Program-made: the position numbers and the translations under genes
Notes under the pieces: generated by a model
The model's input: the letters and a program-made list of their open reading frames with translations, nothing else
Databases searched by the model: none
Told to the model about the DNA's origin: nothing
Part shown: piece by piece, positions 3,049 through 58,449 of the stretch
Numbering within the stretch: position 1 is the stretch's first letter
Layout of the letters: every line of letters begins with the position of its first letter
DNA from: Syntrophales bacterium
GTDB taxonomy: Bacteria > Desulfobacterota > Syntrophia > Syntrophales > PHBD01
Assembly: GCA_963668175.1 (NCBI GenBank)
Contig: OY764159.1
Coordinates: forward strand, 2,560,001-2,624,000
Reading direction: 5' to 3'
DNA: 64,000 nt

Positions 3049-3053
3049 GTGTT

Positions 3054-3286: not shown

Positions 3287-3333
3287 ATTCGGGGGCCGCC
3301 ATCTCCTGACTAGGGGATGGTAACACTGGAATT
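3287..3333. repeat. Degenerate copy of the GGGGACAC/CCCCTGACTAGGGG palindromic repeat family
   Basis: ATTCGGGGGCCGCCATCTCCTGACTAGGGGATGGTAACACTGGAATT, immediately upstream of an AT-rich gene. Confidence 0.6.
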
Positions 3334-3366
3334 GAATAGAATATGAGATAATAAGCTTTATGATCT

Positions 3367-4380
3367 ATGATTGATAAAAAGAAAAGAAGGAATATGAAGA
3401 AAGTATCCAAGCAGTTTCCAGAACTGTTTCATTATACGAATCTGACTGCTTTTAAGAAGATTTATGAAACAAATATTTTCAGAGCGACACATTATAAGGA
3501 CCTGAATGATAGTTCCGAGTTTTCACAGTTCAGACTGAAAGTACATGAATTTATCCGACCGAAAATCCAGACATACTTGGCAAGAATACGGAGGCAAGAT
3601 GTTGAGATTGAGAGACAAATCTCTGAGCGAGGCGGCATCGATTCGGTGGCTGAAGAAAATGCAATAAGACATGTCGATACAATGCACGAACATACATTCA
3701 ATGAGCGAATGTATAAACAAACATTTGTTTGTTCTTTTTGCGGACATCTTATGCCGTCGTATGAAGCAAGTCACGGATTGTTAAGTCAATGGCGAGCGTA
3801 TGGAGTGAGCGACGGTGTCGTCATTGTGCTTGACACGGAGCGTGTTGAGAAAATGTTAGAGCGTGATTATTATGCCTTCCAAATTCAGATAAGTATGATG
3901 GGCGATGTTGTTTATGATGATAACAACAAGAGAATTAAAAAGGATTATGGAAACGTCTTTAAACATTTACCTAAGATAATCGAAATTGAATTTAACAAGC
4001 TCTGGTTTAGTAGAAGATCGGAAGTCGAAGAGCTATATGCAGACATGCATGATCATTTCCTTTTAGGTTCGGTTTTAGTTAAACATCGCGCATTTAAGGA
4101 AGAAAATGAACTCCGAATTGTTGTGGCTCCTAACACTGCGGAATCCTTCACTGCATACGACCCCAATAGTTCCAAAAAGAAGAAGGAAATAAGTTGGATA
4201 CCTAAAGATAATCGTGAAATCAGATACATTGAGATGTTTGGTAATGAACCTCTTCCAATCAAGCGTATAATCGTCGGACCTTCAAAGATACAAAACTTCA
4301 ATTATCAGACAGTCAGAGATATCGTTGGTGAAAATACGGACATCGAAATCTTAAAATCCGAAATTCCCTTCTTAGGCTGA
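3367..4380 (+). CDS. DUF2971-like protein, AT-rich (alternative start 3394)
   Basis: LFHYT, LNDSSE, SFC...LLSQWRAYG, KH-x-x-F-x-EENELR and IIVGP motifs. Confidence 0.75.
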   Translation: MIDKKKRRNMKKVSKQFPELFHYTNLTAFKKIYETNIFRATHYKDLNDSSEFSQFRLKVHEFIRPKIQTYLARIRRQDVEIERQISERGGIDSVAEENAIRHVDTMHEHTFNERMYKQTFVCSFCGHLMPSYEASHGLLSQWRAYGVSDGVVIVLDTERVEKMLERDYYAFQIQISMMGDVVYDDNNKRIKKDYGNVFKHLPKIIEIEFNKLWFSRRSEVEELYADMHDHFLLGSVLVKHRAFKEENELRIVVAPNTAESFTAYDPNSSKKKKEISWIPKDNREIRYIEMFGNEPLPIKRIIVGPSKIQNFNYQTVRDIVGENTDIEILKSEIPFLG

Positions 4381-29301: not shown

Positions 29302-29637
29302 GATCGTTTTCCTTGAATGAATGGTTTGTTGTACGGGGAAACCGCCGCCTCCCGCCCATGTCCCTGCGGACAGCGTCCGCGATCGCAGATACCGCGCCGG
29401 GAAAGGCCTCATCGTGTCGATGTCATGCCGGGTTCGGCGTCTTCCATGAGGGAATCTTTCTGTCTGAAACGGCCGGGAATGACCCCGGCGGGAATTCCGA
29501 AAAAAGAGAGAGACGGCGCGCGATTCGGTGCAGGCGGCGTTCCCTCCGGTTATTGTTTCTTGAAGCTGCGGCATCGGCCCGCATCCTTCGATGAGGCGTC
29601 CGCGTCGCTCAATACTTTCGGGTTGCCGGTTAGTGAT

Positions 29638-29967
29638 TTACGAGAAAGAGGGGGGTGCTCGTTTGCGGGATACGCGGCGATTGGTGAAGTCTGCCTGCCT
29701 TTTGATCTCGTCCGGGCAAGCGCGTATAAAGAAAGGCTGCCGGCCGTAAGCGGCGGCATCGTGCGATATGCCCTGGTGGCACACGGTCTTGGGGCTGTGT
29801 TCCCCGCCGTCGTCTTCCTGTCCGCCGCTGCTCTGCATGACGGCGACGCCGATGTTCATGGGACGCCAGAAATCAGGAACGTCGTCCATCCCTGCGATCA
29901 GGCACAGAAACAGGATAGCGACGCATAAGAACCCTTTACGGAAAACGGCGCTTTTCAGGCTAAACAT
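29638..29967 (-). CDS. Small exported/membrane protein ending in a RAPP motif
   Basis: Hydrophobic N-terminus (FLCVAILFLCLIAG), low-complexity linker, C-terminal SRKRAPPSFS*. Confidence 0.45.
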   Translation of the reverse strand: MFSLKSAVFRKGFLCVAILFLCLIAGMDDVPDFWRPMNIGVAVMQSSGGQEDDGGEHSPKTVCHQGISHDAAAYGRQPFFIRACPDEIKRQADFTNRRVSRKRAPPSFS

Positions 29968-30168
29968 AAAGACGGTGTAACCCCTTTGGAACCTTAAACT
30001 TGTGTAACTTCCTATAACGCAGTCCGTGGGGCGTGTCAACGGATTTGTGTTCCTTCCTTTCCTCCATGCGGCGGTTCAAAACGGGTAAGGCGGAGACGTT
30101 GGGAGGTGCCGCCTGTTTCGTCGATGCCGCAAACCGGAACGACCGGCCCCGCCGTAAGTCCGGACCGG

Positions 30169-31587
30169 CTAGAGCCAGATGAATTTATTCTGTCCCGTGG
30201 CGCATTCGCTGCACATCCTGACGGGCGCAGGGTATCCGTAATTGGGCGCCTTGGCGCGTACCTGGCTGCAAGTGTCGCAGAAGATCCTCCCACAGACACG
30301 GCAGTGATGGCGCCTTGTCACGATCCCGAAGGTTGTCTTGCATTTATGGCAGGCCTTGGCGGCTTCATCCGGCACCCAGTGGGGGTTGTCGATCTCTTTC
30401 GAGCTTTTGACGGCCTGGGCCGGGGGGATTTTGACCGGCCCGGCGATATGGACCCACGGGACGGTGCCCGGCAGGAAGCAGGTGTTGAACTCCGTCATGC
30501 TCATGCCCGTCGTGCCGCCGTGGGCGTGGAACGACTGGACGAACCCCCGCGTTTCCGGCTGATGCGCGAAGGCGATATAATTCAGGGCGGGATAACCCGT
30601 CTTGGGATCGACGTTCTTCTGCACCTGCGTGATGAAGGCGTGGTTGCTTCCCCCGCCGCCGTCGCAGTTGAAGACGTAACCGTCGGGCATGGCCACGACC
30701 GATTCGCTCTTGATGCTCATGCCCGCCGACGGGACGAGATGGATCTGGACCCTCGGCTGCCCGACCGCCGGCGGGGAACGCCACAGCCGCCGCATGGCGT
30801 GATCGAGGCAGACCTCCATCCCGAAACGGATGCCGTCGACGGAGAACATGCCCAGCCCCTCGTAGCGCAGGCGCTGCGCCTCCTTTCCGCTGCCGCGGTT
30901 AAGGTTGCCTCCCTTGCCGGCCTTCAGGTGTTCGACGTCTTCGTGCATGAGCTTGTCGCCCACCTTGTCCCGCGGCTCGATCAGGATCTCCGTCACCTTG
31001 CCGGTATTGTCCTTGTTTTCCGAGCTTTTGCTCAGGAAGTCGATGCCGGACTTGAACTCCTTCATGACGATGCACGATCCGGACTCGCCCGTGTTGCCCT
31101 TCTGCACGACGACGATGTTGTAAACTTCAAGGCCGCGGTCGCGGGCGATGGACGGTCCCTGCGGGCGGTCCATGGCGTGCTTCTCGGAGGATGCGATGCA
31201 GCTCCCGAAGACGAAGAGCCAGTCCTTGAAAATGCTTGGGCTGACGAAGCTCCTAAGGCGCTCGACGATATTCAAGTAGGTTTCGAGGGAGTATGCGCCC
31301 TTCGTGCCGCGGAAGTAGAACTCGGGCGCCATGAAGAGCTTGAGGCAGTTGGCGCTCTTCTGGACGGCCAGCGATTCGTAGGCTCGGCGGATGGCGTCTT
31401 CCATGAGGGAACAGCGAAGCTGGATGTCCTTATCGTCGTCGGCGATGCCCGTGTATTGCTGCAGGCGCTCGTAGACGGGAAGGAGGGTGTTTAAGTCCGC
31501 GATTTCGAAGCCCTTGAGCGCACCCTTCACCTGCTTCGGAAACGTATCCAGCCTGTAGGCGATGAATTGGATATTTTGGTAGGCCAT
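30169..31587 (-). CDS. Nitrilase-like domain fused to a C-terminal FYVE zinc finger
   Basis: FMAPEFYF / VMKE / EVCLDH (E-K-C-like triad); WVPD...CHKC...RRHHCRVCG-x-x-FC-x-x-C...VRMC-x-x-C; GGAGG RBS. Confidence 0.85.
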   Translation of the reverse strand: MAYQNIQFIAYRLDTFPKQVKGALKGFEIADLNTLLPVYERLQQYTGIADDDKDIQLRCSLMEDAIRRAYESLAVQKSANCLKLFMAPEFYFRGTKGAYSLETYLNIVERLRSFVSPSIFKDWLFVFGSCIASSEKHAMDRPQGPSIARDRGLEVYNIVVVQKGNTGESGSCIVMKEFKSGIDFLSKSSENKDNTGKVTEILIEPRDKVGDKLMHEDVEHLKAGKGGNLNRGSGKEAQRLRYEGLGMFSVDGIRFGMEVCLDHAMRRLWRSPPAVGQPRVQIHLVPSAGMSIKSESVVAMPDGYVFNCDGGGGSNHAFITQVQKNVDPKTGYPALNYIAFAHQPETRGFVQSFHAHGGTTGMSMTEFNTCFLPGTVPWVHIAGPVKIPPAQAVKSSKEIDNPHWVPDEAAKACHKCKTTFGIVTRRHHCRVCGRIFCDTCSQVRAKAPNYGYPAPVRMCSECATGQNKFIWL

Positions 31588-31767
31588 GGTATCCTCCGGA
31601 AACGGTTTTTCGTGCGGGACCCGCCGCCGGCGTTGCGGCCCGGGGCCGGGAAAGGGAGTCGGCGCGTAACGTCCTGCCGTTATTCGTTAAAAACGGTACA
31701 AGTATAAGGCAAGGCCGTCACGGCTGTCAAAGGAAATCTTGCAGCGTTGCCGGCGGCCGGCCACCGG

Positions 31768-32907
31768 TTACGCCTTCCGGACGAGGTCGATGACGGCGAT
31801 TTCCGGCGGGGCCAGGATGCGTACTGGCGGCCCCCACGTCCCCGCGCCCCGGCTGACGTAGAGGTGCGACCGGGGCGGAAGCGCGAAATAGCCGGCATTG
31901 AACGGGTAGACCAGGCGGGTGACCAGGCCGAAGGGGAAAAGCTGTCCCTTGTGGGTATGGCCGGAAAGCTGGAGGTCGAAAAGACCCTCTGCGCCCCGCT
32001 CGACGACCGGCTGGTGCTTGAGGAAAAGCGTAAAGCCTTCGGGCCGGAGGCGGGACAGGAGTTCGCGGTCCGTCAGTTTCCCGCCTGGGCCGGAGCGCCT
32101 CCCCATGGGATCGTCGACGCCCGCGACCTGGATAACGCCCCGGACAGCCGCCGTTGCCCCCCGGAGGATCGTGAAGCCCGACGCCGTAAGGAACGCAACG
32201 GAGGCCTCGACGCCGGCGAAGAATTCGTGGTTTCCCAGGACGGCGAACTTGCCGTACCGGGGCTTGACGCCCTGGAGTAGTCTTACTGCCTCGGCCGTAT
32301 CGGTCGTCTCGCCGTCCAGCAGGTCGCCCGTGGCCGCGAGGACGTCGGGCTTCTCGTTTGCGGCGGCGGCGACGATCCGTTCCAGGCGCTTCTTGCGGAC
32401 GATGAGGCCGATGTGGACGTCGGATATCTGGACGATTCTGAGGCGACCGACATTTGCGGGAATCCGGTCCGAAACGATCGTGATCCGCTCCGTGCGGAGG
32501 CGCACCGCCTCGACGGCGCCCCAGATGTTGGCGGCGAGCGATACCGCCGCGGGGACGGCGAACGAGACAAAGGGCGACGGAACGAGTGACGGCGGGAGAG
32601 TCGTAAAGACAAGACCGGCCGCATGGACGGAGAGGGCATAGAGATCGAGACAGAGGGTGCCGGCGCAATAGACGAAGAGAAATCCCATCCAGAAGTAGCC
32701 CGTGTAGGCGACCGCGCGGGCCTGACTCTCCCGGCCGCGGCTCTCGAGCATCCGTTCGCCGACGGGGGCGACGACCATCAGGGCGAGGAAAAGGGCAAGA
32801 CCTGCGGCGGCCGCCGGAGCAAGCGGGTAAGCACCCGTTAGGCCGGTATAGAAGTAGAGGTGCATGCCGCCGTAGATGATGAAGAAGGTCGTGAGAAAAA
32901 GAGTCAT
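31768..32907 (-). CDS. Membrane-anchored metallophosphoesterase (YkuE/YaeI-like)
   Basis: N-terminal TM helices; SDVH, GDLLD, GNHE and SGHTH motifs. Confidence 0.92.
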   Translation of the reverse strand: MTLFLTTFFIIYGGMHLYFYTGLTGAYPLAPAAAAGLALFLALMVVAPVGERMLESRGRESQARAVAYTGYFWMGFLFVYCAGTLCLDLYALSVHAAGLVFTTLPPSLVPSPFVSFAVPAAVSLAANIWGAVEAVRLRTERITIVSDRIPANVGRLRIVQISDVHIGLIVRKKRLERIVAAAANEKPDVLAATGDLLDGETTDTAEAVRLLQGVKPRYGKFAVLGNHEFFAGVEASVAFLTASGFTILRGATAAVRGVIQVAGVDDPMGRRSGPGGKLTDRELLSRLRPEGFTLFLKHQPVVERGAEGLFDLQLSGHTHKGQLFPFGLVTRLVYPFNAGYFALPPRSHLYVSRGAGTWGPPVRILAPPEIAVIDLVRKA

Positions 32908-37270: not shown

Positions 37271-37315
37271 TTATAATATGTCAAGAATAACGTCTGAAAA
37301 GTGGGAGGAATCGTC

Positions 37316-38002
37316 ATGAAAAAAATCGTACTCATTATCGCTGCTTTTTTTGCCCTGACGACGGGGGTTGCTTTTGCAGGCACTATTTACGACAACGGGT
37401 TACCTAATCTTTCAGATGCTGTGTTCAGTGATCCCAGTGCTACTGACTCAAATGGATTGACGCAAACAGCGGCGGGCAGTTTCTGGGTGTCGGGGTCCAG
37501 TAATCTTACAGATATCCATTGGTGGGGCATATACGGCAATGCGGTGCAGTCTCTGAATAACTTTACGATCAATATCTATGAAACGGCCGCAGCGGCCAAC
37601 CTGCCCGGATCTTTATATAAAAATGTCACGATAACAAACCTAACCGTCACCAATACCGGTACAAGAATAACGGATACTACTTACGGTGTTTACAAATATG
37701 ACATCACGATCAATCCGATTGCATTGTCTGCCGGAGTGATCTACTGGCTGGAAATCGTGAACACGACTGAGAATGGCGAGTGGGCTTGGGCAACTGCTGA
37801 TGGAAAAGATACAACTGCTTTTTTTAAGGACGGCAATTGGAATCTCTTAATTTTTGAAGATGGATCGACGGAGCAGCTTGCATTCTATTTAACCGACGAC
37901 GTCGAGGAGCCGCCGACGGGCGTTCCCGAACCCGGTACGATGATGCTTCTGGGCCTCGGCCTCGCGGGCGCTGCGGCCGCCAGGAAGCATTTCCGCAGAT
38001 AA
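37316..38002 (+). CDS. PEP-CTERM sorting-domain protein
   Basis: Signal peptide ending AFA; Thr/Asn-rich body; VPEPGTMMLLGLGLAG...RKHFRR tail. Confidence 0.92.
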   Translation: MKKIVLIIAAFFALTTGVAFAGTIYDNGLPNLSDAVFSDPSATDSNGLTQTAAGSFWVSGSSNLTDIHWWGIYGNAVQSLNNFTINIYETAAAANLPGSLYKNVTITNLTVTNTGTRITDTTYGVYKYDITINPIALSAGVIYWLEIVNTTENGEWAWATADGKDTTAFFKDGNWNLLIFEDGSTEQLAFYLTDDVEEPPTGVPEPGTMMLLGLGLAGAAAARKHFRR

Positions 38003-44228: not shown

Positions 44229-45368
44229 TCAGGGCTTCAGATTGGTGTGAATGATCCTCGCGCCGTCGAAGCCGTTGAAGCGGGTGGACGAGGCCGTGCT
44301 GTAGGCGCCGATGTTGTCCGTCAGGAGGTAATCCCCGATTTCCAGGTTTCCCGGAAGCTGCACCGAGAGCGATATCTTGTCGAAGCTGTCGCAGGTCGGC
44401 CCGACCACGGCGCACACCTCTTTTTTCCCGCGCTTGAACGAACTGAAATTGGGCAGCCAGTGGTCGTAGATCACGCCGGAGAAGGTGTGATAGACGCCGT
44501 CGTTGATATAATAGAACAGCTTGCCGTCCCTCCGGGACTTGCCGATGATTTCGGTGATCAGCGTCGCCGCGGTCGCCGCGATGAATCTGCCCGGCTCCGC
44601 GATGATTTCGATATCCTTGGGGAAGAGCCGGTTGCATTCGTCGTCGATGAGGTTCGCCAGCTTCCCGAATTCCGGAACCTGCGAGTCGTAGGGCACGGGA
44701 AATCCCCCGCCGATGTCCAGGATCTTGAGGGAATGCCCCTTCTGCCTGGCGTCTTTCAGGATCGTCGAGGCGATGGCGAGCGCTTCGGTATAATTGTTGA
44801 AGTTCGTGCACTGGCTTCCCACGTGGAAGCTCACCCCTTCGACATCGAGCCCCTCCTCGCTCGCCTTTTGGATCAGATGGTCGGCTTCCGCCGGTTCGGC
44901 CCCGAATTTCGTGCTCATTTCGACCTGCGAGCCGGTATCGGGCACCTTCAGCCTGAGGACCAGGCCGGCCGTGTCGCAGCATTCCTTGATTTTCTTCAAC
45001 TCTTCGATATTGTCGAAGGTGACCAGGGGCCGGTACTGCCTGATTCTGCGGAGCGTCTCCTTGTCCTTGATGGTGTTGGAAAAAATGATCTTGTCCCAGA
45101 TATACGAATGCTGGTCTTCTTCCTCGAAGTGCTTGATGTATTCGTAGATCTGCATGAATTCGTTGTAGGAGGCGACGTCGAAGCTGGACCCCTCGCGGAA
45201 GAGGGTCCCGATGATCTCCGGGTGGGAATTGGCCTTCACCGCGTAATAGCATTGAACCCGGGGCAGGTTCTTCTTGAAGGTCCGGTAATTCTCCCGCAGC
45301 TTCGCGTGGTCCAGGATGAAGAGGGGCGTTCCGTGCGTCTTGATCAGGTCGGTGAGTTGTTTATTCAT
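44229..45368 (-). CDS. Ornithine/lysine decarboxylase, fold-type III PLP enzyme
   Basis: YAVKAN, FDVAS, KFG, SFHVGSQ, LDIGGGF, EPGRF, GPTCDSFD and GAY motifs. Confidence 0.93.
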   Translation of the reverse strand: MNKQLTDLIKTHGTPLFILDHAKLRENYRTFKKNLPRVQCYYAVKANSHPEIIGTLFREGSSFDVASYNEFMQIYEYIKHFEEEDQHSYIWDKIIFSNTIKDKETLRRIRQYRPLVTFDNIEELKKIKECCDTAGLVLRLKVPDTGSQVEMSTKFGAEPAEADHLIQKASEEGLDVEGVSFHVGSQCTNFNNYTEALAIASTILKDARQKGHSLKILDIGGGFPVPYDSQVPEFGKLANLIDDECNRLFPKDIEIIAEPGRFIAATAATLITEIIGKSRRDGKLFYYINDGVYHTFSGVIYDHWLPNFSSFKRGKKEVCAVVGPTCDSFDKISLSVQLPGNLEIGDYLLTDNIGAYSTASSTRFNGFDGARIIHTNLKP

Positions 45369-46558
45369 TTTCGCTTCTTCGCCGCGAGATTTTTCATGAG
45401 CCGTGTGAGCTCACCGACCTCTTTGTTGTTTTCCAGGTAGGACTCGGCCAGCTTTTCGCGCAGCTCCTCCCCGCGGTCGTAAAGCCTTTTCTGCTTCCTG
45501 GGCTTGGTCGCATGCAGGACGTAGGCGACCATCAGCGGCAGGGCCACCGTGACGTCGAGATAGGCGGTGACCGCCTCTTCCAGCATCGTCGGGTCGATCT
45601 TGCCCCAGCTCGCCGCCTCGCTGGGCGGGGCCCCGGACAATCCGCCCGTATCGGGCCTCGCGTCGGTGACGTTGATGTCGTAATCCTGCCCCACCTCGGG
45701 GATCATGAGGACTTCCTGGATCTGCGGCTCCGTCTGGAGCATGAAATTCTTCGGGCTGCCGCCGCCGATGAGGATCACGCCGGTCTTCCCCTTCTCGTAA
45801 CGCTTGGCGTTCAGGATGATGGCGGTCGAATCGTTGACGTCGATGCTCGGGTTGATCTTCAGTTTGAAGGCGTTCTGCATGCCGGCCGTTTCCGCCAGGA
45901 GTTCCAGGCCGGCGACGTTCATGCCGATGGTGGAGTCGCCGGGCGACGACGTGAACACGGGGATGCCGTTCCGGTAGGCGGCGGCGAGGATGCTCACCTC
46001 TCCGAGTTTGTGTTTCTTTTCGTAGTCGTTCATCGCCTTGCCCAGGTGGTGGTAATATTCGCGGGTTCCCATCTCTTTCTGGAACTCCGGCTGGAGCATG
46101 ATCTTTCTCAAACGGCGGTCCGTCTCCATCAGCACGTCTTCGTAATCGAACAGGATGTCGTAAATCCGGGTCACGCCTTTGTCCCGCAGGTCGGCGTCGC
46201 TCACGGTATGGGAGCCGCGGTGCATGGGCAGGTTGAAGGCGAAGTGCAGGTCGTGGTACATGTTCGCGCCGGTGGCCGTCATCCAGTCGACAAAGCCGTG
46301 ATTCATGAGGGGGATGATCGCCGAAGGCCCCAGCCCCGCCGGGGTCAGCGCACCCGCCAGGCTCAAGCCCACGGTGACGTCGTTCCGGGAATACCTGTCC
46401 CGGAGCAGATGGCAGGCGGCCCGCAGCCGCCCGCCGTTGTAGGCATCCATATTGTCGATCAGTCTGACGATATCCGTCTTCTTCGAGATCGGTTCGGGGA
46501 GGATTCTCTTGCCGCAGAGATATTTCGATTTTCCGGGACATTCGGCTTTTTTCTTCAT
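45365..46558 (-). CDS. Deoxyhypusine-synthase-like protein (probable homospermidine synthase, SpeY-type)
   Basis: AGALTPAGLG, TGANMYHD, GGGSPKNF and DTGGLSGAPPSEAASWGK motifs; overlaps the decarboxylase start. Confidence 0.88.
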   Translation of the reverse strand: MKKKAECPGKSKYLCGKRILPEPISKKTDIVRLIDNMDAYNGGRLRAACHLLRDRYSRNDVTVGLSLAGALTPAGLGPSAIIPLMNHGFVDWMTATGANMYHDLHFAFNLPMHRGSHTVSDADLRDKGVTRIYDILFDYEDVLMETDRRLRKIMLQPEFQKEMGTREYYHHLGKAMNDYEKKHKLGEVSILAAAYRNGIPVFTSSPGDSTIGMNVAGLELLAETAGMQNAFKLKINPSIDVNDSTAIILNAKRYEKGKTGVILIGGGSPKNFMLQTEPQIQEVLMIPEVGQDYDINVTDARPDTGGLSGAPPSEAASWGKIDPTMLEEAVTAYLDVTVALPLMVAYVLHATKPRKQKRLYDRGEELREKLAESYLENNKEVGELTRLMKNLAAKKRK

Positions 46559-46569
46559 GATCGCCTTTC

Positions 46570-46802
46570 TGACAGGCCACGCCCCCCGCATGGGGGGTGT
46601 TGAAAAACGCCCATCTGCTGCTTGTCACCTTCAGGTGATGTTGCACTTCTTCCCTCGGATGCTCACGTACCCTTATGTATGCTCCGCTCCTCGGGCCTCG
46701 CGCGCCTTGCATCCGGACATTTTTGAACCCCCTGAAGGGGGCAAGCAGCCTGCGCGCCCCCTGCATAGGGGGTTCAATATCGAGTTTTTCACAAGCTGCC
46801 AG
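46570..46802. mobile_element. MITE-like element, copy 3
   Basis: CAGGC[hairpin insert]TGTTGAAAAACGCCCATCTG...ATCGAGTTTTTCACAAGCTG. Confidence 0.78.
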
Positions 46803-47571: not shown

Positions 47572-48183
47572 CTATTTATGAAACTTCTTTCCGGCTGCCG
47601 TTGCGCCGAGCAGGCCGAGGCCCAAAAGCAGGACCGTAGACGGTTCGGGAACGGCCTGCGTGGTCTCCATGATCGCCGGGCCCGATAAGCACTCTACCGT
47701 TTCCATGGTATACTCATAGGCGCCGACATAAGTGATCGCCATGGCGCTGTTCGTGCCCAGGCTAACGCCGTCGGCCCGGAAACTGAAAGTGGCGGCAGAG
47801 CCCGTCTGGTAGACGGAACTCGGGTCCACGCCCCACCAGTACAACCATTCATACCCCGACGCGAGCGTTACAGGCACAAAGTAGGACGAAGCGCTCGGCG
47901 ACCAGTCGGCCGGGGCAATAATGGCCGTCCAGTACCCGCCGCCGGCCGGATTGTAAGCCGCCGGACTGGTGACATTCGCCAGGCTGACCGACCCCGTGGG
48001 CACCATGACGAAGAAGCCGTCCAACCCTTGGGACGCGCCGTTATTGGTCACCGTATAGGTGAAGTTATAGGAATCGCTGTCAATTTGAGTAATGGTTTCC
48101 TGGACGGTATAGGAACCCGCCGAAACCGTACTGCCGATCAGGAGCAATCCCGCGATTAAAAAGAACATGAATCTCTTCTTCAT
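47572..48183 (-). CDS. PEP-CTERM sorting-domain protein
   Basis: Signal peptide; VPEPSTVLLLGLGLLG...KKFHK tail; GGAGG RBS. Confidence 0.92.
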   Translation of the reverse strand: MKKRFMFFLIAGLLLIGSTVSAGSYTVQETITQIDSDSYNFTYTVTNNGASQGLDGFFVMVPTGSVSLANVTSPAAYNPAGGGYWTAIIAPADWSPSASSYFVPVTLASGYEWLYWWGVDPSSVYQTGSAATFSFRADGVSLGTNSAMAITYVGAYEYTMETVECLSGPAIMETTQAVPEPSTVLLLGLGLLGATAAGKKFHK

Positions 48184-48246
48184 TTGAATACCCCTCCTCC
48201 GCTGTAATATGATGGCTCACCTGATTTAACTCCCGTGGCGACATGT

Positions 48247-48343
48247 AGCAAATAAGGTGCCATGCGCATAAGTGATGAATATTTTAACTTATCGCGAAAT
48301 GTCGGCCGAGCCGGTCCGTCCGACGGTGTAAAAAAAGCCGACA
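48247..48343 (-). promoter_or_regulatory. sigma54 promoter with a TTTACA-type enhancer
   Basis: Minus strand TGGCACCTTATTTGCT (48247-48262) and TGTCG-N6-TTTACA (48327-48343). Confidence 0.78.
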
Positions 48344-48618
48344 GCAGCGACAGGGCGGGGCTGACGCCGATGCGGCGATTATCGAATCGGCACAAGGAGT
48401 AGGGCGGATGGAGGCGACTGTAAAATAAAAGGGCGCCGTGTTGGATTCCTTTACAGGTGGGGCATGGGAAGATCGGTATTATTTTGTGAAGAATTGTAAA
48501 CGCTGTCCGGGCGCGGGTTGAGAGAACGGGGTACGGTCCTGGAAGGCATGCGAAGGGGTGCGGGACGGCGCGATCAACCATTGTTTCCCGTTTGTTTTCG
48601 CAGGCTTCATGATCTTCG

Positions 48619-48921
48619 TCAGGGCCGCGTGTTTCCGCAGTTCCAGCACTCTGTGAATTGCCCCTCGATATCCTCGCCGCACGAATTGCATGTCCAGCCG
48701 GCTATTTCTTTTTCTGTAAGCGCTTCGTCCACAATGCGCATCGCTTCCGGGAAATCGTCGTCAATTACACATAGCCGAGGCCAGCACTCTATCGGCGGAA
48801 GCTCGCCGATCCCCGCGGAGAGAAATTCATTTTTTATCCAGCATTTGATCCCGTTTGCTTCCAGGATGTTCTGAAATATACTGACAAGCGGGAGGGTCGG
48901 TGCGCTGTAAACGGTCTTCAT
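48619..48921 (-). CDS. DUF2007-like protein with a C-terminal zinc ribbon
   Basis: LEANGI-x-C-x-IKNE...GELP...WP-x-L; WTCNSCGE-x-IEGQF-x-x-CWNCG. Confidence 0.85.
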   Translation of the reverse strand: MKTVYSAPTLPLVSIFQNILEANGIKCWIKNEFLSAGIGELPPIECWPRLCVIDDDFPEAMRIVDEALTEKEIAGWTCNSCGEDIEGQFTECWNCGNTRP

Positions 48922-48955
48922 TTTCTCTCTCCGGTTTGCCTTCTTGATGCATCCG

Positions 48956-49026
48956 AATAATTCCGGGAACAAGCATACTAAATTGAGGAAAAATCGGAAT
49001 ACCGGAACGATGTCACCAGAATTATT
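48956..49026. repeat. Cassette-spacer palindromic repeat R1
   Basis: AATAATTCCGGGAACAAGCATACTAAATTGAGGAAAAATCG...TGTCACCAGAATTATT. Confidence 0.75.
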
Positions 49027-49053
49027 GTGGAAAACATGATAGTGAACCAGTTT

Positions 49054-49338
49054 TCATGCCGCTGTTTTCAGCGTAACATGCATGCCGGCCCTCGTGGCAA
49101 GAGTGACAAGCATTTCAAGACTGAATCGCTCCCATTTGCCTCTAATCAGATCCGATATCCTGGACTGACTAACACATAGCATTTTCGCAGCATTGGTCTG
49201 TGTAAGTTTCCGGGTTTCGATGAACTTGCGAAGCTTGTCCATAAGATCGGCACGCATCTGAAGAATAGCGGCCTCTTCCTGAGAATATCCAAGATCGATA
49301 AATACATTGCCGGAAGACTTGATAATCGCGTTCTTCAT
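49054..49338 (-). CDS. XRE/HTH antitoxin (HigA-like)
   Basis: SSGNVF-x-DLG...LTQ-x-x-AA-x-x-L-x-VSQ-x-RIS-x-L-x-RGK...FSLE-x-L. Confidence 0.88.
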   Translation of the reverse strand: MKNAIIKSSGNVFIDLGYSQEEAAILQMRADLMDKLRKFIETRKLTQTNAAKMLCVSQSRISDLIRGKWERFSLEMLVTLATRAGMHVTLKTAA

Positions 49339-49341
49339 AAA

Positions 49342-49662
49342 TTATCCTCCCATTTGCCTGTAGCGCTGGCGAGTCAAATCGATATCCTGCCGCCTTGTTT
49401 TTCTTGTTTTCTTTTGAAATGCGTGAAGCACATAAACGGCATCGCGAAGATTGGCTATATAGATAACCCGCCACTCCCCAAGAAAATGAATACGAATTTC
49501 TTTAACGCCGGAGCCGACAGCCTGTATTGGCTTCCAGTCGCTTGGTTCAAGTCCCGACTGAATGGCGTGGAGTTCAAAACCGGCAGCCCGTCTTGCTTCA
49601 TCGGGGAAGTTCCGGAGATCTTCCAGACTCGATCACACGAATTTCAACGGTTTCATCTTCAT
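49342..49662 (-). pseudogene. RelE/Gp49-like toxin with a premature stop at codon 10
   Basis: Manual translation MKMKPLKFV*SSLEDLRNFPDEARRAAGFEL...DWKP...GVKEIRI...RVIY...VYVLHAFQKKT...; TGA at 49633-49635. Confidence 0.85.
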
Positions 49663-49727
49663 GGCGCCATTATATAAGTTTTTGTATATTTGGCAAGAAT
49701 AAATTCCCGGTCAATGAATACCCGGGG

Positions 49728-49825
49728 TTCCGGGGACGCAATCCCCCCTGGTCCGGGGACACGTTTCCTAGTCAGGGGGCAGTGTTCCCGGAAATTCTCG
49801 AATTAAGTATGGTGTCCCCGGAATC
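49728..49825. repeat. Cassette-spacer palindromic repeat R2 (composite)
   Basis: TTCCGGGGACGC...CCGGGGACAC...CCTAGTCAGGGG...GTGTTCCCGGAA...AATTAAGTATGGTGTCCCCGGAAT. Confidence 0.8.
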
Positions 49826-49876
49826 GTTAATAGGAATTGCCGTGAATTATGGTTTGAAGGAAAGTTATGCGGCCGA

Positions 49877-50713
49877 TTAATCTGACGGCTTGGCATTCGG
49901 CTGTATGGGTTTGTTAGAAGTGCCATATGGTTCTTGACGGCACAACTTGAACCACTCGCACGCTATCCCTCGAAACGGCTTATAAGGTTTATTGTTCTGA
50001 ATTGCGTGAACCTGATTCCATGGTATGAAGTGATATGAATTTCTGTCGTCGAGGATCAGTACCCCCTTTTCAAAAGTTCTCAGAATATTTCCCGAAACTG
50101 AGGCAGATGGTGCACTTCGTTCTATGGTTACCTTGGAAGGTTTACGGACGGTCGCATCTAACGCAGCATTGTATCCACTAAAAAATGCGACAATTACGAT
50201 AATAGGTAAGAATGTGAATCCAAACTGAACTTGTCTACTACGACGAATTTTAATGAGGGGAGCCGCGTAACACCACTCCGCAAATCCCATCCACACAATC
50301 GATAACATCAAAGGTAGTATAGACGCAAAAACATCCCCAATCAACACATAGATAATCACATAAAGTGGTGCCGTCCAGGCCATTAATTTCCATGGGCCTT
50401 CTCGAAACTTTCGCATCCGTTCCGGATTAGAAGCAGACTCAATAATTTCCTTTTCATTTAGCCCTCGTTCTATTCTCTTGAACTGGAATTCAATAGCAAC
50501 ACTACCAAGAAGAAAGAATAGAAGGTATGGAAACCATAGTAGGCCACTCCGAAAATGATCAGTGGTCGTTGTATGCAATTTCGCAAAATCTAAGCCCAAA
50601 GCGTAAAAGAAGCCCCAATCGTAAATGACAGAAACGACAAATCCGGCGGCAACTGCAACGGCAACGCCTTCTGCAAGGGTGCCCAAAGATATAGCTTTAT
50701 ATTCACTTAGCAT
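49877..50713 (-). CDS. AT-rich hypothetical membrane protein
   Basis: 278-aa ORF with about five hydrophobic helices, flanked by R2 and R3. Confidence 0.7.
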   Translation of the reverse strand: MLSEYKAISLGTLAEGVAVAVAAGFVVSVIYDWGFFYALGLDFAKLHTTTTDHFRSGLLWFPYLLFFLLGSVAIEFQFKRIERGLNEKEIIESASNPERMRKFREGPWKLMAWTAPLYVIIYVLIGDVFASILPLMLSIVWMGFAEWCYAAPLIKIRRSRQVQFGFTFLPIIVIVAFFSGYNAALDATVRKPSKVTIERSAPSASVSGNILRTFEKGVLILDDRNSYHFIPWNQVHAIQNNKPYKPFRGIACEWFKLCRQEPYGTSNKPIQPNAKPSD

Positions 50714-50723
50714 AAAAAATCAC

Positions 50724-50812
50724 ATAACTCTGGAGACATCCATACTAAATAAAGGGAAAAATCGATCAATAAGTCCGCGTCCCCTGACTAGGGGGTGGTG
50801 TCTCCGGAATTC
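50724..50812. repeat. Cassette-spacer palindromic repeat R3
   Basis: ATAACTCTGGAGACATCCATACTAAATAAAGGGAAAAATCGATCAATAAGT[CCGCGTCCCCTGACTAGGGGG]TGGTGTCTCCGGAATTC. Confidence 0.85.
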
Positions 50813-51153
50813 TTTTGACACGAATCCAAGTTCCTCTTTTCGATTTTAGTTGCTGAAAGAATATCTTTTAATAGACCTAATACGTATGTGTAAAAGAGAA
50901 TTGCCGCCGCAAGAAAAAAACCCGATTTGCCTGTCGCGTAATAATGACTACCAATAATCATAAGAACAGCTATTAATTTTAAGAATTCAATTTGAAAATA
51001 ACCATATTTTTCATGAAATTTAAAGTATTTATTATCTATTGAATGATGATGCTTTTTCGCATAGTAGAGTAAAATTGCATCTAGAAAATAAAATACTATC
51101 AATGAATATTCGATAAATGAATCAAGTATCGATATATACTCTGTTAATTTCAT
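50788..51153 (-). CDS. Very AT-rich hypothetical membrane protein; stop codon lies inside repeat R3
   Basis: 121-aa ORF with three hydrophobic segments; its tail NSGDTTP* is translated repeat sequence. Confidence 0.55.
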   Translation of the reverse strand: MKLTEYISILDSFIEYSLIVFYFLDAILLYYAKKHHHSIDNKYFKFHEKYGYFQIEFLKLIAVLMIIGSHYYATGKSGFFLAAAILFYTYVLGLLKDILSATKIEKRNLDSCQKNSGDTTP

Positions 51154-51164
51154 GAGGCCTCATT

Positions 51165-51430
51165 AATAATTCTGGAAACACCATACTCAATAGAGGCAAA
51201 AATCGATCAATAAGTACCGCGCGCGCCCCCGGACTAGGGGGTGGTATGCCCGAGATTGTTGACATATCGTTAGCCGATAAGTATCAAAGTATGAAAATAC
51301 ACATATATTTTATATAATCCATTGCCCTTGTCAAGCGTCTAATTCGCGGCAACGGACTTATACGCGGTTCCTGGCGGTGCATTGCGCGGGTGAGCCTGCG
51401 GGAGTGTTAACGGCAAAATGAATGAGCCCC
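51165..51430. repeat. Repeat R4 plus conserved leader (homologous to 59483-59735)
   Basis: AATAATTCTGGAAACACCATACTCAATAGAGGCAAAAATCGATCAATAAGTA...; leader TATATAATCCATT.C.CTTGTCAAGCG...CTTAT...CGGTTC..GGCGGTGC. Confidence 0.8.
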
Positions 51431-51590
51431 CCCCGGAGTGCGGCGCGTTTGATTCGCGTAATCCGGGGCGGCGTCTGCGGCGGGAATTAGGGGAGGATAG
51501 AAAGATAACGCCCGTTCTGCCGGGGCGGCTTCGCGGCGTGGGCGTGGACTTCGAGGGAGCTTTGGGGATTCCGGCCGACGCTCGATGCGC

Positions 51591-51645
51591 CAAATAGAAA
51601 CGGCCCCCGTACCGGTTCGTCGCCCGGCGGCGGGGGCCGCATCCA
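51591..51645 (-). terminator. Terminator-like repeat, copy 2 of 3
   Basis: CAAATAGAAACGGCCCCCGTACCGGTTCGTCGCCCGGCGGCGGGGGCCGC. Confidence 0.75.
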
Positions 51646-51661
51646 GGAATTGTATCGCACA

Positions 51662-53143
51662 TCAGCCGATCAGCCTAGTTACTTGGCCGCACTCCCTGCA
51701 AATGCGAGTTCGGGACATATGAGAACTTCTCCGGAGCAGGTAGCCATGCGCGGCGCAATAGCGCTTTCCGCAAAACGTGCACTCGTGCCATCTGGTTCCC
51801 ACCGTCGTGCCCCCTGCGCGATAGACAGCGCCGCATCCTTTCTCGCAACATGCGTTCGCCGGCGAGGCAACGCCGTGCTTGTCTTCGGGTTTGGGTAGCA
51901 GCGTGCGCCAGATCCTTTTCCAGTCCGCCTCATGGACGGTAAGGGCATCCAGAAACAGGTTGCCGCCTATGGCCAGATTCTGAGGCGTGTTCTGGAGCCG
52001 CGGGTGCTTTTGCAGACGGTTGAACGCGGCCTTGTGTCCCACGTCCATCGTGTTCACGGATGTCTGGAGAAGCGAAACTCCGTATTTGAGGTAATGATAG
52101 CAATCCAGGTGCCAGCGCGTATTGAGGGCTTTCGCGATTTTAATGTAATCGGGGGCCTCTCCCGTATCGGGGAGGGGGTGCCACGATTCCCCCCGGCCGA
52201 GATGAATCGAAGAGGGCGGATAGTTTGCGGCATACATATAGGTGGTGCAAGGGAAGCAGGAGGCCATTTTCGTCGTGTCCTTACCCACGGCCATTTCGTA
52301 CGGCGTGCACCAGGGGCCGCATTTGATGGATTCCCGTATCGCCCAGCTCATCCCGTGAACATATCCGACGACGCCTTTATGACGCAGGCGAGATTCCTCG
52401 TCAGATGATAACGGGCCCATTCCCTTGGACGGATCGGGACTCAGATTCATCTCCGGATTCTTCGGCGGACTGATGAGCCCGTGTTCGCGTTGCCCGAAGC
52501 CGCCTTCCTTGTGCCACCGGTTCTCGTGCGGCACGACGATGCGTTTTGTGGGCTGCACGAGCGTGTTGTGATAGACGGGATCGTCGATCATGCCCGTGTA
52601 GGCGCCCCTGCCATAATAGCCCCCCGGCTGGTACATCTCCTGTTTTCCCCGGGTTATTCCCCCTGGATCAGCAGGGGGCTTGACTCTCGCGGGGCCGGTA
52701 ACCATCGCGCCCCCCGCGCGGCCGGTGATTCGTTCACCGATGTCCCATTGCGGCGATTGCGCATCCTTGATCAATGGGCTGTGCAAATGGTTCTTATTGA
52801 GCACCTGGGTCATCGCCTCGACGACGACGAGGAAGGACTGCATTTCTTCCAGATGCTCGATATATTCCTGCTTCGCCTTTTTCCATTTCTCTTGATCCGC
52901 TGGTTTACCTTCTAGCATCGTAAGATCATGATCGAATTGCGGATTGTCCATTCTTTCGAAGAGGAGCGTCGTTTCGGGGTCCTTCGTTTCGATATCGAAG
53001 CTGAACGGCTGTTCGAGATGTATCCGCGTGGCGCTGAATCCCAGCACGGTCGCAGTGACAATAACATCGGCTTCATGATTGCAGCGCTCTTGATATGTTC
53101 TGTGATCCAAGTGAATGTTATCACCGAGTATTGTTTTCATCAT
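51662..53143 (-). CDS. Hypothetical protein with a C-terminal FYVE-like zinc finger
   Basis: GGAGG RBS before ATG 53143; central ASCFPC...HLGRGESW; C-terminal CEKGC...RWHECTFCGKRYCAAH...RICREC. Confidence 0.72.
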   Translation of the reverse strand: MMKTILGDNIHLDHRTYQERCNHEADVIVTATVLGFSATRIHLEQPFSFDIETKDPETTLLFERMDNPQFDHDLTMLEGKPADQEKWKKAKQEYIEHLEEMQSFLVVVEAMTQVLNKNHLHSPLIKDAQSPQWDIGERITGRAGGAMVTGPARVKPPADPGGITRGKQEMYQPGGYYGRGAYTGMIDDPVYHNTLVQPTKRIVVPHENRWHKEGGFGQREHGLISPPKNPEMNLSPDPSKGMGPLSSDEESRLRHKGVVGYVHGMSWAIRESIKCGPWCTPYEMAVGKDTTKMASCFPCTTYMYAANYPPSSIHLGRGESWHPLPDTGEAPDYIKIAKALNTRWHLDCYHYLKYGVSLLQTSVNTMDVGHKAAFNRLQKHPRLQNTPQNLAIGGNLFLDALTVHEADWKRIWRTLLPKPEDKHGVASPANACCEKGCGAVYRAGGTTVGTRWHECTFCGKRYCAAHGYLLRRSSHMSRTRICRECGQVTRLIG

Positions 53144-58414: not shown

Positions 58415-58449
58415 CTTTCTTAACCCATGATATGTTTCACAACAATCGG

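What the first reader, a model, noticed from the sequence alone, without database searches (positions are those of the whole stretch)
30169..31587. Bacterial protein with a canonical eukaryote-type FYVE finger fused to a nitrilase-like domain
Seen: the C-terminus (about 30196-30378) has WVPD, eight Cys in FYVE spacing, an intact RRHHCRVCG and VRMC. The N-terminus has APEFYF, a candidate Lys and EVCLDH, matching the Glu-Lys-Cys triad order of carbon-nitrogen hydrolases. There is no signal peptide, and the GC-rich codon style looks like the host's. Known: WxxD, R(R/K)HHCR and RVC form the PI3P-binding pocket that targets FYVE proteins to endosomes and phagosomes; the domain is essentially eukaryotic and bacteria are not known to make PI3P. 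Inference: an effector aimed at a eukaryotic grazer or host (e.g. an anaerobic protist), delivered by a Sec-independent route, or a repurposed lipid-binding module.
Basis: partly seen in the sequence, partly recalled or inferred. Interest (0 to 1): 0.82.

Follow-up and report, generated by a model that had tools for sequence, protein, structure and literature searches.

The report
Bacterial amidase-like enzyme with FYVE finger
A free-living anaerobic bacterium encodes a native, intact protein joining a very divergent nitrilase-fold enzyme to a textbook eukaryote-type FYVE lipid-binding finger, which suggests an enzyme steered to a PI3P-bearing membrane, a targeting device not described for bacteria in the papers searched.

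Summary
ORF 30169-31587 (-) encodes 472 aa. Residues 403-464 match Pfam FYVE at 73.7 bits (cutoff 27.8), with eight Cys, WVPD, RRHHCR and RMC. About half the residues match human Lst2, and 43% match Hrs in the fold search.

Residues 1-~382 match no Pfam or NCBIfam model. A confident model (pLDDT 90-92) hits only nitrilase-superfamily enzymes among the listed top matches (E 1e-6 to 1e-4, TM 0.3-0.5, 9-14% identity). E89, K176 and C260 are invariant or nearly so.

The core belongs to a large bacterial family with no matching model in the Pfam copy used: 2148 representatives. Of 230 sampled members, 169 have almost no C-terminal tail and 13 carry FYVE.

The fusion recurs in independent assemblies, clusters in the core tree and uses host codons. 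It is neither a chimera nor a recent import. The pocket motifs are each kept in 11 of 12 bacterial fingers. One relative adds an ADP-ribosyltransferase toxin-like domain.

Most likely this is a membrane-recruited thiol amidase aimed at PI3P. Whether that membrane is eukaryotic or the bacterium's own is open. No secretion-system family matched among the 57 window ORFs scanned.

The parts
31701..31730 (-). sigma-70-type promoter-like site, TTGACA-18 nt-TATACT
   Evidence: 11 of 12 consensus matches and the only site in 29500-32000. Shuffles give a mean of 0.7 sites, so the count alone is weak evidence. Sequence seen.
31593..31597 (-). GGAGG ribosome-binding site, 5 nt upstream of the ATG
   Evidence: Read directly.
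30169..31587 (-). Coding sequence, 472 aa plus stop (P0001)
   Evidence: GC3 is 0.85 and the codon cosine to host genes is 0.954.
30442..31587 (-). Divergent nitrilase-superfamily (CN-hydrolase-fold) module, residues 1-~382
   Evidence: AF2 models: pLDDT 89.9 / pTM 0.91 and pLDDT 92.0 / pTM 0.92. Apart from one FYVE match (Hrs), every listed Foldseek PDB hit is a nitrilase-superfamily enzyme. No Pfam or NCBIfam match.
31321..31323 (-). Glu89 (PEF motif), candidate catalytic base
   Evidence: Invariant in alignments A1 (60 sequences) and A2 (49 sequences). Sits just after strand 81-86 in the model.
31060..31062 (-). Lys176, candidate catalytic lysine
   Evidence: Invariant in A1 and A2. Directly follows strand 171-175.
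30808..30810 (-). Cys260 (EVCLDH), candidate nucleophile
   Evidence: Invariant in A1 and at least 90% conserved in A2. Lies between strand 253-257 and helix 261-264.
30196..30381 (-). FYVE zinc finger, residues 403-464
   Evidence: Pfam PF01363 at 73.7 bits. PDB phmmer: Lst2 1.6e-16, Hrs 7e-15, RUFY1, WDFY3, EEA1. Foldseek: Hrs 4avx, 43% identity, rmsd 2.4 over 60 columns.
30367..30378 (-). WVPD (WxxD pocket motif), residues 404-407
   Evidence: W-x-x-D is kept in 11 of 12 aligned bacterial fingers.
30298..30315 (-). RRHHCR basic pocket motif, residues 425-430, preceded by the FGIVT loop
   Evidence: Aligns to FGVMTRKHHCR of Hrs. (R/K)RHHCR is kept in 11 of 12 bacterial fingers.
30211..30219 (-). 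RMC (RVC-type motif), residues 457-459
   Evidence: R-[V/M/I]-C is kept in 11 of 12 bacterial fingers.

Best explanation
The gene encodes a soluble two-module enzyme.

Module 1 (residues 1-~382) is a strongly diverged, embellished member of the nitrilase (carbon-nitrogen hydrolase) superfamily. Using a Cys260 thiol, with Glu89 and Lys176, it would cleave or transfer an amide or acyl bond through a thioester intermediate.

Module 2 (residues 403-464) is a canonical FYVE zinc finger. Its basic pocket (WVPD, RRHHCR, RMC) and its hydrophobic FGIVT loop would dock the protein on a membrane that displays phosphatidylinositol 3-phosphate. The active site would then work at that membrane surface.

Shown: both modules exist, the fusion is native and inherited, and the pocket residues are under conservation.

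Inferred: catalysis by the triad, PI3P binding, and which membrane is the target. I think the target is most likely the endosomal or phagosomal membrane of a eukaryotic cell, such as a grazing or host protist, which would make this an enzyme toxin or effector delivered by a route not yet seen. The substrate is unknown.
For: - FYVE at 73.7 bits with all signature motifs. About half of 65 aligned residues are identical to human Lst2, and the membrane-insertion loop plus basic motif align to Hrs. The fold matches Hrs FYVE.
- The bacterial FYVE profile retrieves eukaryotic FYVE proteins (ZFYVE1-like, RhoGEF-PH-FYVE, myotubularin-FYVE) at 35-50% identity. All hits that carry an organism name are eukaryotic.
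- WxxD, (R/K)RHHCR and R[VMI]C are each kept in 11 of 12 bacterial fingers, although the hydrolase cores of the more distant FYVE-bearing relatives are only 31-40% identical to P0001. That argues for an unchanged ligand.
- Nitrilase fold: apart from one FYVE match (Hrs), every listed Foldseek hit is a nitrilase-superfamily enzyme, in two independent models. E89 and K176 are invariant and C260 invariant or nearly so, each at a strand end as in this fold.
- An Atlas lead points to clusters auto-named CN hydrolase (score 0.94).
- The family is modular. Among 60 aligned members the cores are fused to FYVE (10), Lipase_3, fucose lectin/DUF346, and C1-like or Prok-RING-like fingers (1 each).
- P0167 carries core + FYVE + an Enterotoxin_a/Scabin-like ADP-ribosyltransferase domain: 28.8 bits against cutoff 21, and 24.4 against 27.
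- The gene is native and has expression signals: codon cosine 0.954, a promoter-like site and an RBS.
- FYVE-bearing members cluster in the core tree: 3 changes against 9.8 in shuffles, 0 of 500 shuffles as low.
Against: - No sequence model links module 1 to CN_hydrolase: 0 of 60 members at E <= 0.01, 1 of 49 at E 0.13, and no nitrilase in PDB profile searches.
- TM-scores are only 0.3-0.5, and the triad was not superposed in 3D.
- No signal peptide.
- Among the 57 window ORFs scanned against Pfam, none matched a T3SS, T4SS, T6SS or eCIS family.
- There is no conserved neighbour or immunity-like gene. None of 6 flanking window genes has a homologue in the 80 loci, and the FYVE loci L001, L009 and L013 have different neighbours.
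- No PADLOC match.
- The hosts named in the loci (Desulfobacula, Syntrophaceae) are, as far as I recall, free-living anaerobes not known as pathogens.
- PI3P lies on the cytosolic leaflet of eukaryotic membranes, so the protein would have to be translocated.
- Two bacterial copies have degenerate pockets: P0006, and L001 with WVPY and RDRVHCS.
Confidence: 0.4

Rival explanations
1. Same enzyme, endogenous target. The FYVE finger binds the bacterium's own inositol phospholipid at the inner face of the cytoplasmic membrane. The ligand would be the phosphatidylinositol-phosphate intermediate of the prokaryotic PI pathway. This would place the amidase or acyl-transferase next to a lipid or lipoprotein substrate, in the way the nitrilase-fold enzyme Lnt works at the membrane (Lnt is recalled, from no call).
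For: [quoted passage not shown] By inositol numbering this is the 3-phosphate (recalled).
- Inositol lipids are reported in Myxococcus and Bacteroidetes (PMC9246714, passages).
- The gene has a housekeeping-like context, its own promoter-like site, host codon usage, no signal peptide and no secretion genes nearby.
- Most family members (169 of 230) are plain single-domain enzymes.
Against: - No Pfam match to inositol-phosphate synthase or CDP-alcohol phosphatidyltransferase among the 57 window ORFs scanned. The rest of the genome could not be examined.
- The PIP intermediate is expected to be transient and scarce (inference).
- The finger sits within eukaryotic FYVE sequence space.
- A relative couples FYVE to an ADP-ribosyltransferase toxin-like domain.
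Confidence: 0.3
2. The finger has been repurposed. It keeps the FYVE scaffold but serves as a generic zinc-stabilised module for protein contacts or for unspecific anionic-lipid binding (phosphatidylglycerol phosphate, cardiolipin and the like), with no PI3P specificity.
For: - Some copies have lost the pocket while keeping the eight Cys: L001 (WVPY, RDRVHCS), which Pfam also scores weakly as C1 or Prok-RING, and P0006 (EKKHCH, GMC).
- pTM of 0.91 for the whole chain suggests that the finger packs in a fixed way against the core.
Against: The three pocket motifs are each kept in 11 of 12 bacterial fingers, across deep divergence of the core. That is hard to explain without the eukaryote-type ligand. 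The turret loop is hydrophobic, as in Hrs.
Confidence: 0.15
3. The hydrolase-like module is catalytically dead or is not an amidase, and acts as a binding scaffold.
For: No CN_hydrolase HMM match. TM-scores are low and there are large insertions: residues 1-45 and about 205-245.
Against: E89, K176, C260, D262 and H263 and many glycines are invariant in the 60-sequence alignment A1. Pseudoenzymes usually lose such residues (established knowledge).
Confidence: 0.08
4. Assembly chimera, or eukaryotic contamination joined to a bacterial gene.
For: None found. The FYVE part has a somewhat lower GC3 (0.75 against 0.87), which fits its Cys/Lys/Arg-rich composition.
Against: The same architecture occurs in 13 cluster representatives from several sources, on contigs up to 49.7 kb, and in GTDB contigs L001, L009 and L013. 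It is a single open frame with host codon usage. FYVE members cluster in the core tree.
Confidence: 0.01

Closest known systems
Eukaryotic FYVE fingers (Hrs/HGS, EEA1, Lst2/ZFYVE28, RUFY1, WDFY3, ZFYVE1/DFCP1)
   Same: Eight-Cys binuclear zinc finger, WxxD, R(R/K)HHCR, an RVC-type motif and a hydrophobic loop before the basic motif. Identity is 35-50%.
   Different: The host is a bacterium. The finger is the C-terminal tail of a bacterial enzyme family that was not seen in eukaryotes here. RVC reads RMC. No coiled coil or second finger for avidity is seen in this copy, although P0019 has two fingers.
Nitrilase / carbon-nitrogen hydrolase superfamily (Nesterenkonia AN1 amidase, Nit2, vanin-1, AmiF, glutaminase domain of NAD+ synthetase)
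   Same: Predicted fold, and a conserved Glu, Lys and Cys in that order at strand ends.
   Different: Only 9-14% identity. No Pfam PF00795 match. About 100 extra residues: an N-terminal beta-hairpin region (5-44) and a loop at about 205-245 holding the family-conserved GxGKExQ...YxGxG stretch. The motif around the Cys is E-V-C-L-D-H.
Phosphoinositide-binding effectors of intracellular pathogens (Legionella Dot/Icm substrates and the like; recalled, from no call)
   Same: The idea of a bacterial enzyme anchored to a host PI3P or PI4P membrane.
   Different: As far as I recall, those use unrelated folds and carry a secretion signal next to a dedicated secretion system. Here the finger is a true FYVE and no secretion system is in view. 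A review of such effectors mentions FYVE only for host proteins, and only in its reference list (PMC5787570, passages).
Apolipoprotein N-acyltransferase Lnt (recalled, from no call)
   Same: A nitrilase-fold enzyme that works on lipids at a membrane surface through a thioester.
   Different: Lnt is an integral membrane protein. It was not among the Foldseek hits listed. There is no sequence relationship to it shown here.

Membership tests
FYVE zinc finger (Pfam PF01363) | Match to the family HMM above the gathering score | tested here: met
   73.7 bits against 27.8, E 1.3e-20, profile positions 1-63 of 67.
FYVE zinc finger (Pfam PF01363) | Eight zinc-binding Cys in four CxxC pairs | tested here: met
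   C413/416, C429/432, C437/440 and C459/462. All eight are invariant in the 7-sequence alignment A3.
FYVE zinc finger (Pfam PF01363) | PI3P-pocket motifs WxxD, R(R/K)HHCR and RVC (motif definitions recalled) | tested here: met
   WVPD, RRHHCR and RMC (V to M). Each is kept in 11 of 12 bacterial fingers.
FYVE zinc finger (Pfam PF01363) | FYVE fold | tested here: met
   Foldseek hit to Hrs 4avx: 43% identity, rmsd 2.4 over 60 columns, E 3.3e-5. pLDDT in this region is 85-95.
FYVE zinc finger (Pfam PF01363) | Specific binding of PI3P | not testable with these tools
   Needs liposome or PIP-strip assays.
Nitrilase / CN-hydrolase superfamily (Pfam PF00795 and clan) | Match to a family sequence model | tested here: not met
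   No PF00795 match for P0001. 0 of 60 relatives at E <= 0.01. 1 of 49 at E 0.13. No nitrilase chain in PDB profile searches.
Nitrilase / CN-hydrolase superfamily (Pfam PF00795 and clan) | Four-layer alpha-beta-beta-alpha fold | tested here: met
   Apart from one FYVE match (Hrs), every listed Foldseek hit belongs to the superfamily. Probability 1.00, E 9e-7 to 2e-4, TM 0.45-0.53 on the target side for the single-domain amidases, in two models. On the query side TM stays below 0.4, so the core is heavily embellished.
Nitrilase / CN-hydrolase superfamily (Pfam PF00795 and clan) | Conserved Glu-Lys-Cys catalytic triad | tested here: inconclusive
   E89 and K176 are invariant, and C260 is invariant in A1 and at least 90% conserved in A2. 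They occur in the right order and at strand ends.
Nitrilase / CN-hydrolase superfamily (Pfam PF00795 and clan) | Amidase, nitrilase or acyl-transfer activity | not testable with these tools
   Needs enzymology.
Secreted effector / polymorphic toxin | Secretion signal, trafficking domain or adjacent secretion system | tested here: not met
   No N-terminal hydrophobic core, and no Pfam domain other than FYVE. Among the 57 window ORFs scanned against Pfam, none matched a secretion-system family. The remaining roughly 4.5 Mb of the genome was not available.
Secreted effector / polymorphic toxin | Conserved adjacent immunity or chaperone gene | tested here: not met
   None of 6 window flanking genes has a homologue in the 80 related loci. 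L009 and L013 share a downstream 598-aa gene of no known family. It is absent from the window and from all other loci except a weak match (26% identity) in L045.
Known anti-phage defence systems (PADLOC) | Match to a defence-system model | tested here: not met
   No match for any of the 12 proteins scanned, P0001 included.

The most novel reading that the evidence does not exclude
Free-living sulfate-reducing and syntrophic Desulfobacterota maintain a true FYVE-guided enzyme toxin. After translocation it would home to PI3P on the endosomes or phagosomes of anaerobic protists. This would be the first bacterial effector to use the eukaryotic FYVE finger itself, carrying a previously undescribed nitrilase-fold toxin domain. 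The equally unconventional alternative is that these bacteria read out their own PI3P with a FYVE finger, which would amount to phosphoinositide-based protein targeting inside a bacterium.
Probability: 0.35. Interest if true: 0.85.

Novelty: new variant of a known kind. Interest (0 to 1): 0.62.

Why it matters
FYVE fingers are treated as a hallmark of eukaryotic endomembrane sorting. Here a small clade of anaerobic bacteria has kept one, with its PI3P pocket intact, on the end of a bacterial enzyme. Either outcome of a binding test would be informative.

If the ligand is eukaryotic PI3P, this shows that environmental, non-pathogenic bacteria carry weapons or tools against eukaryotes that are built from the host's own targeting module.

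If the ligand is bacterial, it shows phosphoinositide-based localisation in a prokaryote.

The finding also exposes a large family of nitrilase-fold enzymes (2148 representatives) that matches no model in the Pfam copy used. Its variable tails (FYVE, lipase, lectin, an unnamed tail of about 108 aa) suggest targeted action on membranes or glycans.

Tried and rejected
- **Self-association.** The 2-copy job gave no verdict (score 0.00, mark 0.42). It is not used as evidence either way.
- **Sequence link to CN hydrolases.** These all failed: Pfam at E up to 10 on 49 members (1 hit at E 0.13); PDB profile searches with A2 and A1 (weak colicin E7 rows at E 0.2-0.4 taken as chance); phmmer of P0038, which one source names 'predicted amidohydrolase' (only repeat-protein noise); and a relaxed HMM plus motif hunt for genuine CN hydrolases among locus ORFs, to seed a profile-profile comparison (none found).
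- **FYVE origin.** The region-restricted word search found only 3 candidates, all close relatives. A FYVE-domain tree with 239 rows and 76 columns had 122 of 236 forks open. The bacterial fingers cluster (5 changes against 14.7 in shuffles) but strongly supported branches force at least 2 groups, so single or multiple acquisition and its direction stay unresolved.
- **Gene neighbourhood.** One subclade (17 loci: Polaromonas and other Comamonadaceae, Nannocystis, sphingomonads) has a conserved operon with a phage-tail-collar protein, a multi-GT2 glycosyltransferase and unknown proteins of 955 and 205 aa. It does not extend to the FYVE clade.
- **Defence and Atlas.** PADLOC gave nothing. The second Atlas call, on P0013, did not reveal what PF28597 is.
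- **Literature.** No paper holds the phrases 'bacterial FYVE' or 'prokaryotic FYVE'. Searches combining FYVE with nitrilase, horizontal transfer, Legionella, treble clef or bacterial genomes gave nothing relevant.
- **Not checked.** No AlphaFold DB library was available. The genome outside the 64-kb window was not available.
Full report
**1. The observation**

It is preceded by a GGAGG box 5 nt upstream of the ATG. Further upstream lies the only sigma-70-like site in the 29500-32000 interval: TTGACA-18-TATACT, 11 of 12 matches. Shuffles of that interval give 0.7 sites on average, so the count alone proves little.

Pfam places a FYVE finger at residues 403-464 with 73.7 bits against a gathering score of 27.8. 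NCBIfam finds nothing.
- WVPD (404-407)
- RRHHCR (425-430)
- RMC (457-459)
- eight cysteines in four CxxC pairs
- APEFYF (87-92)
- EVCLDH (258-263)

Against solved structures the finger matches Lst2 (E 1.6e-16), Hrs, RUFY1, WDFY3, EEA1 and Vps27. In the printed alignments about half of 65 positions are identical to Lst2. The stretch FGIVTRRHHCRVCG aligns to FGVMTRKHHCRACG of Hrs, so the hydrophobic loop before the basic motif is kept as well.

**2. The N-terminal module**

No Pfam or NCBIfam model matches residues 1-400.

An AlphaFold2 model built on 60 relatives is confident (pLDDT 89.9, pTM 0.91). So is a model of residues 1-395 alone, built on 49 relatives (pLDDT 92.0, pTM 0.92).

Apart from one FYVE match (Hrs), every listed Foldseek hit in the PDB is a nitrilase-superfamily enzyme. 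The hits include the glutaminase domain of NAD+ synthetase, Nesterenkonia amidase, vanin-1, Nit2/Nit3, formamidase AmiF, D-carbamoylase, N-carbamoylputrescine amidase and beta-alanine synthase. Probability is 1.00 and E ranges from 9e-7 to 2e-4. Identity is only 9-14%, and TM is 0.3-0.4 on the query side and up to 0.53 on the target side.

In alignments of 60 and 49 relatives, E89 and K176 are invariant. C260 is invariant in the first alignment and at least 90% conserved in the second, and D262 and H263 behave likewise. In the model each of E89, K176 and C260 sits at the end of a strand, and C260 lies between a strand and a helix. This is the arrangement expected for the Glu-Lys-Cys triad.

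I could not superpose coordinates, and no sequence method links the family to CN_hydrolase. I therefore file the module as 'nitrilase-superfamily fold, triad probable', not as a member of Pfam PF00795. An Atlas lead agrees: its nearest cluster is auto-named 'CN hydrolase domain-containing protein', score 0.94.

**3. The family and the fusion**

The core is a large bacterial family:
- 202 word-indexed hits.
- 2148 representatives at 50% identity with E <= 1e-3, of which 823 reach E <= 1e-30.
- 201 tblastn-confirmed places in GTDB species genomes, of which 80 were kept. They come from Myxococcota, Desulfobacterota, Comamonadaceae, methanotrophs, cyanobacteria, Acidobacteriota, Planctomycetota and others.

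I sampled 230 members:

| C-terminal tail | Members |
|---|---|
| At most 20 residues | 169 |
| FYVE | 13 |
| A different unnamed tail of about 108 aa | 23 |
| A long shared tail; one of the three (P0059) matches Pfam Lipase_3 | 3 |

Other fusions seen once each among 60 aligned members are a fungal-type fucose lectin with DUF346, and C1-like or Prok-RING-like fingers. Of 60 further long members scanned, 55 matched no Pfam family at all.

One relative, P0167 (886 aa), has the core, then FYVE, then a region matching Enterotoxin_a (28.8 bits, cutoff 21) and Scabin-like (24.4 bits, below its cutoff of 27) ADP-ribosyltransferases.

I built a FastTree of 154 cores. Three FYVE members with partial cores were dropped. 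The remaining 10 FYVE-bearing rows need 3 label changes against 9.8 in shuffles (0 of 500 as low), and nine of them sit together. A single origin is not excluded.

The FYVE architecture also occurs on GTDB contigs from an uncultured Desulfobacula (L001) and two Syntrophaceae (L009, L013).

Both halves of the window's gene use the host's codons: cosine 0.954, GC3 0.87 and 0.75. The gene is therefore native, inherited and not a chimera.

**4. Is the pocket maintained?**

I aligned 12 bacterial fingers:
- W-x-x-D is present in 11. The first finger of P0019 lacks the Trp.
- (R/K)RHHCR is present in 11. P0006 reads EKKHCH.
- R-[V/M/I]-C is present in 11. P0006 reads GMC.

The Desulfobacula copy (L001; the same tail sequence appears in P0005) keeps the cysteines but reads WVPY and RDRVHCS. 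It scores only 31.4 bits.

Outside the four close relatives, and P0005 at 52%, the cores of these proteins are 31-40% identical to P0001. So the pocket is conserved across deep divergence, with occasional decay. That pattern fits a finger that still binds its classical ligand in most lineages.

A profile of seven bacterial fingers retrieved 2639 longer proteins at E <= 1e-5. Among the 120 listed, all that carry an organism name are eukaryotic (ZFYVE1-like, RhoGEF-PH-FYVE, myotubularin-FYVE, ArfGAP-FYVE), at 35-50% identity. That is as close as the bacterial subgroups are to each other.

A domain tree is too short to decide between one transfer and several, or to give a direction.

**5. Context**

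Pfam scans of 57 window ORFs show an ordinary anaerobe chromosome:
- pyruvate:ferredoxin oxidoreductase and cytochrome c3
- flavocytochrome-type FAD enzymes
- a Cache-PAS-GAF histidine kinase and an MCP
- HU/IHF proteins
- a membrane metallophosphoesterase directly upstream

No ORF matched a secretion-system, eCIS or inositol-lipid family.

None of six flanking genes has a homologue in the 80 related loci. The Syntrophaceae loci share a downstream 598-aa gene of no known family that the window lacks. PADLOC finds nothing.

**6. Mechanism**

Shown:
- a two-module protein
- a canonical FYVE finger
- a nitrilase-type fold with conserved Glu, Lys and Cys
- a native, inherited fusion

Inferred:
- The finger docks the enzyme on a PI3P-bearing membrane.
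- There the Cys260 thiol cleaves or transfers an amide or acyl group of a membrane-proximal substrate.

Which membrane is the open point. I put the eukaryotic reading first (0.4). The finger is indistinguishable from eukaryotic ones, the pocket is conserved, the family swaps targeting-type tails, and one relative couples FYVE to a toxin-like ADP-ribosyltransferase.

Weighing against it: no export signal or machinery is in view, and PI3P faces the eukaryotic cytosol, so translocation would be needed.

The endogenous reading (0.3) rests on the documented prokaryotic route to PI through a phosphatidylinositol-phosphate made from L-myo-inositol-1-phosphate (PMC4634129, passages). Bacterial inositol lipids are reported in PMC9246714 (passages). 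That this PIP is the 3-phosphate follows from inositol numbering, which I recall and which comes from no call. Whether this host has the pathway could not be tested.

**7. Comparison and novelty**

The finger passes every testable FYVE criterion. The core meets the fold criterion of the nitrilase superfamily, fails the sequence-model criterion, and leaves the triad geometry untested.

In 8.1 million PMC papers and 0.36 million preprints, no text holds 'bacterial FYVE' or 'prokaryotic FYVE'. Five further combined searches found no description of such a protein. A review of effectors that subvert trafficking mentions FYVE only for host proteins, and only in its reference list (PMC5787570, passages).

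I rate it a new variant of known kinds: two known folds in a combination and a host not described, on a family that matches no model in the Pfam copy used. The precomputed label PF28597 on five relatives is absent from the local Pfam copy. It could not be named and may already cover part of this family.

**8. Verdict**

Interest is 0.62: a specialist in phosphoinositide biology or bacterial effectors would find a conserved, canonical FYVE finger in free-living Desulfobacterota surprising. A simple lipid-binding and localisation experiment would decide between two readings that are both of interest.

Noticed in passing
P0167 (886 aa): A family member with hydrolase core + FYVE + a C-terminal region matching Enterotoxin_a (28.8 bits, cutoff 21) and Scabin-like (24.4 bits, below cutoff 27) ADP-ribosyltransferase models.
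   Followed up: partly
L005-L008, L010-L012, L014-L018, L020, L023, L025, L026, L036 (about 4 kb either side of position 8001): In 17 loci (Comamonadaceae, Nannocystis, sphingomonads and others) the homologue carries the unnamed tail of about 108 aa. It sits in a conserved cluster with a phage-tail-collar-domain protein, a roughly 810-aa multi-GT2 glycosyltransferase and unknown proteins of about 955 and 205 aa.
   Followed up: partly
L009:8937-10736 and L013:7595-9388: A conserved 597-599-aa gene of no Pfam or PADLOC family lies immediately downstream of the FYVE-bearing gene in two Syntrophaceae. Its only other match is a weak one in L045. A SpoIIE phosphatase lies upstream in both loci, and in L009 also a STAS protein and an anti-sigma-kinase-like protein, together a partner-switching set.
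   Followed up: partly
P0019 (560 aa): Carries two tandem FYVE fingers behind the hydrolase core. This would give bivalent lipid binding.
   Followed up: no
L045:6943-7983 and L045:7503-9155: A Planctomycetota contig has two adjacent ORFs that both match the family HMM over almost its full length. As called here the two ORFs overlap.
   Followed up: no
P0011, P0013, P0014, P0016, P0020: Five relatives carry the precomputed label PF28597, which is absent from the local Pfam copy. Its name and extent stayed unknown.
   Followed up: partly
window 2219-3048 (+): A HigB-like toxin ORF followed by an HTH_3 antitoxin-like ORF, that is, a type II toxin-antitoxin pair.
   Followed up: no
window 2001-4000, 48001-52000, 58001-60000: Low-GC stretches (0.455-0.49, against about 0.6 elsewhere). 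They hold a DUF2971 gene, an HTH_37 gene and several ORFs with no family. Of these only the DUF2971 gene was tested for codon usage, and it is far from the host's (cosine 0.60). The stretches are probably acquired islands.
   Followed up: no
window 37301-38002 (+) and 47572-48183 (-): Two PEP-CTERM proteins, one of them with DUF7901. These are exosortase-type sorting substrates.
   Followed up: no
window 44229-46591 (-): An adjacent Orn/DAP/Arg decarboxylase and a deoxyhypusine-synthase-like gene, a pair typical of polyamine (homospermidine-type) synthesis (the function is recalled).
   Followed up: no
window 31768-32907 (-): Directly upstream and on the same strand lies a 379-aa calcineurin-like metallophosphoesterase whose N-terminal third looks hydrophobic in the translation. 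It has no counterpart next to any relative.
   Followed up: partly
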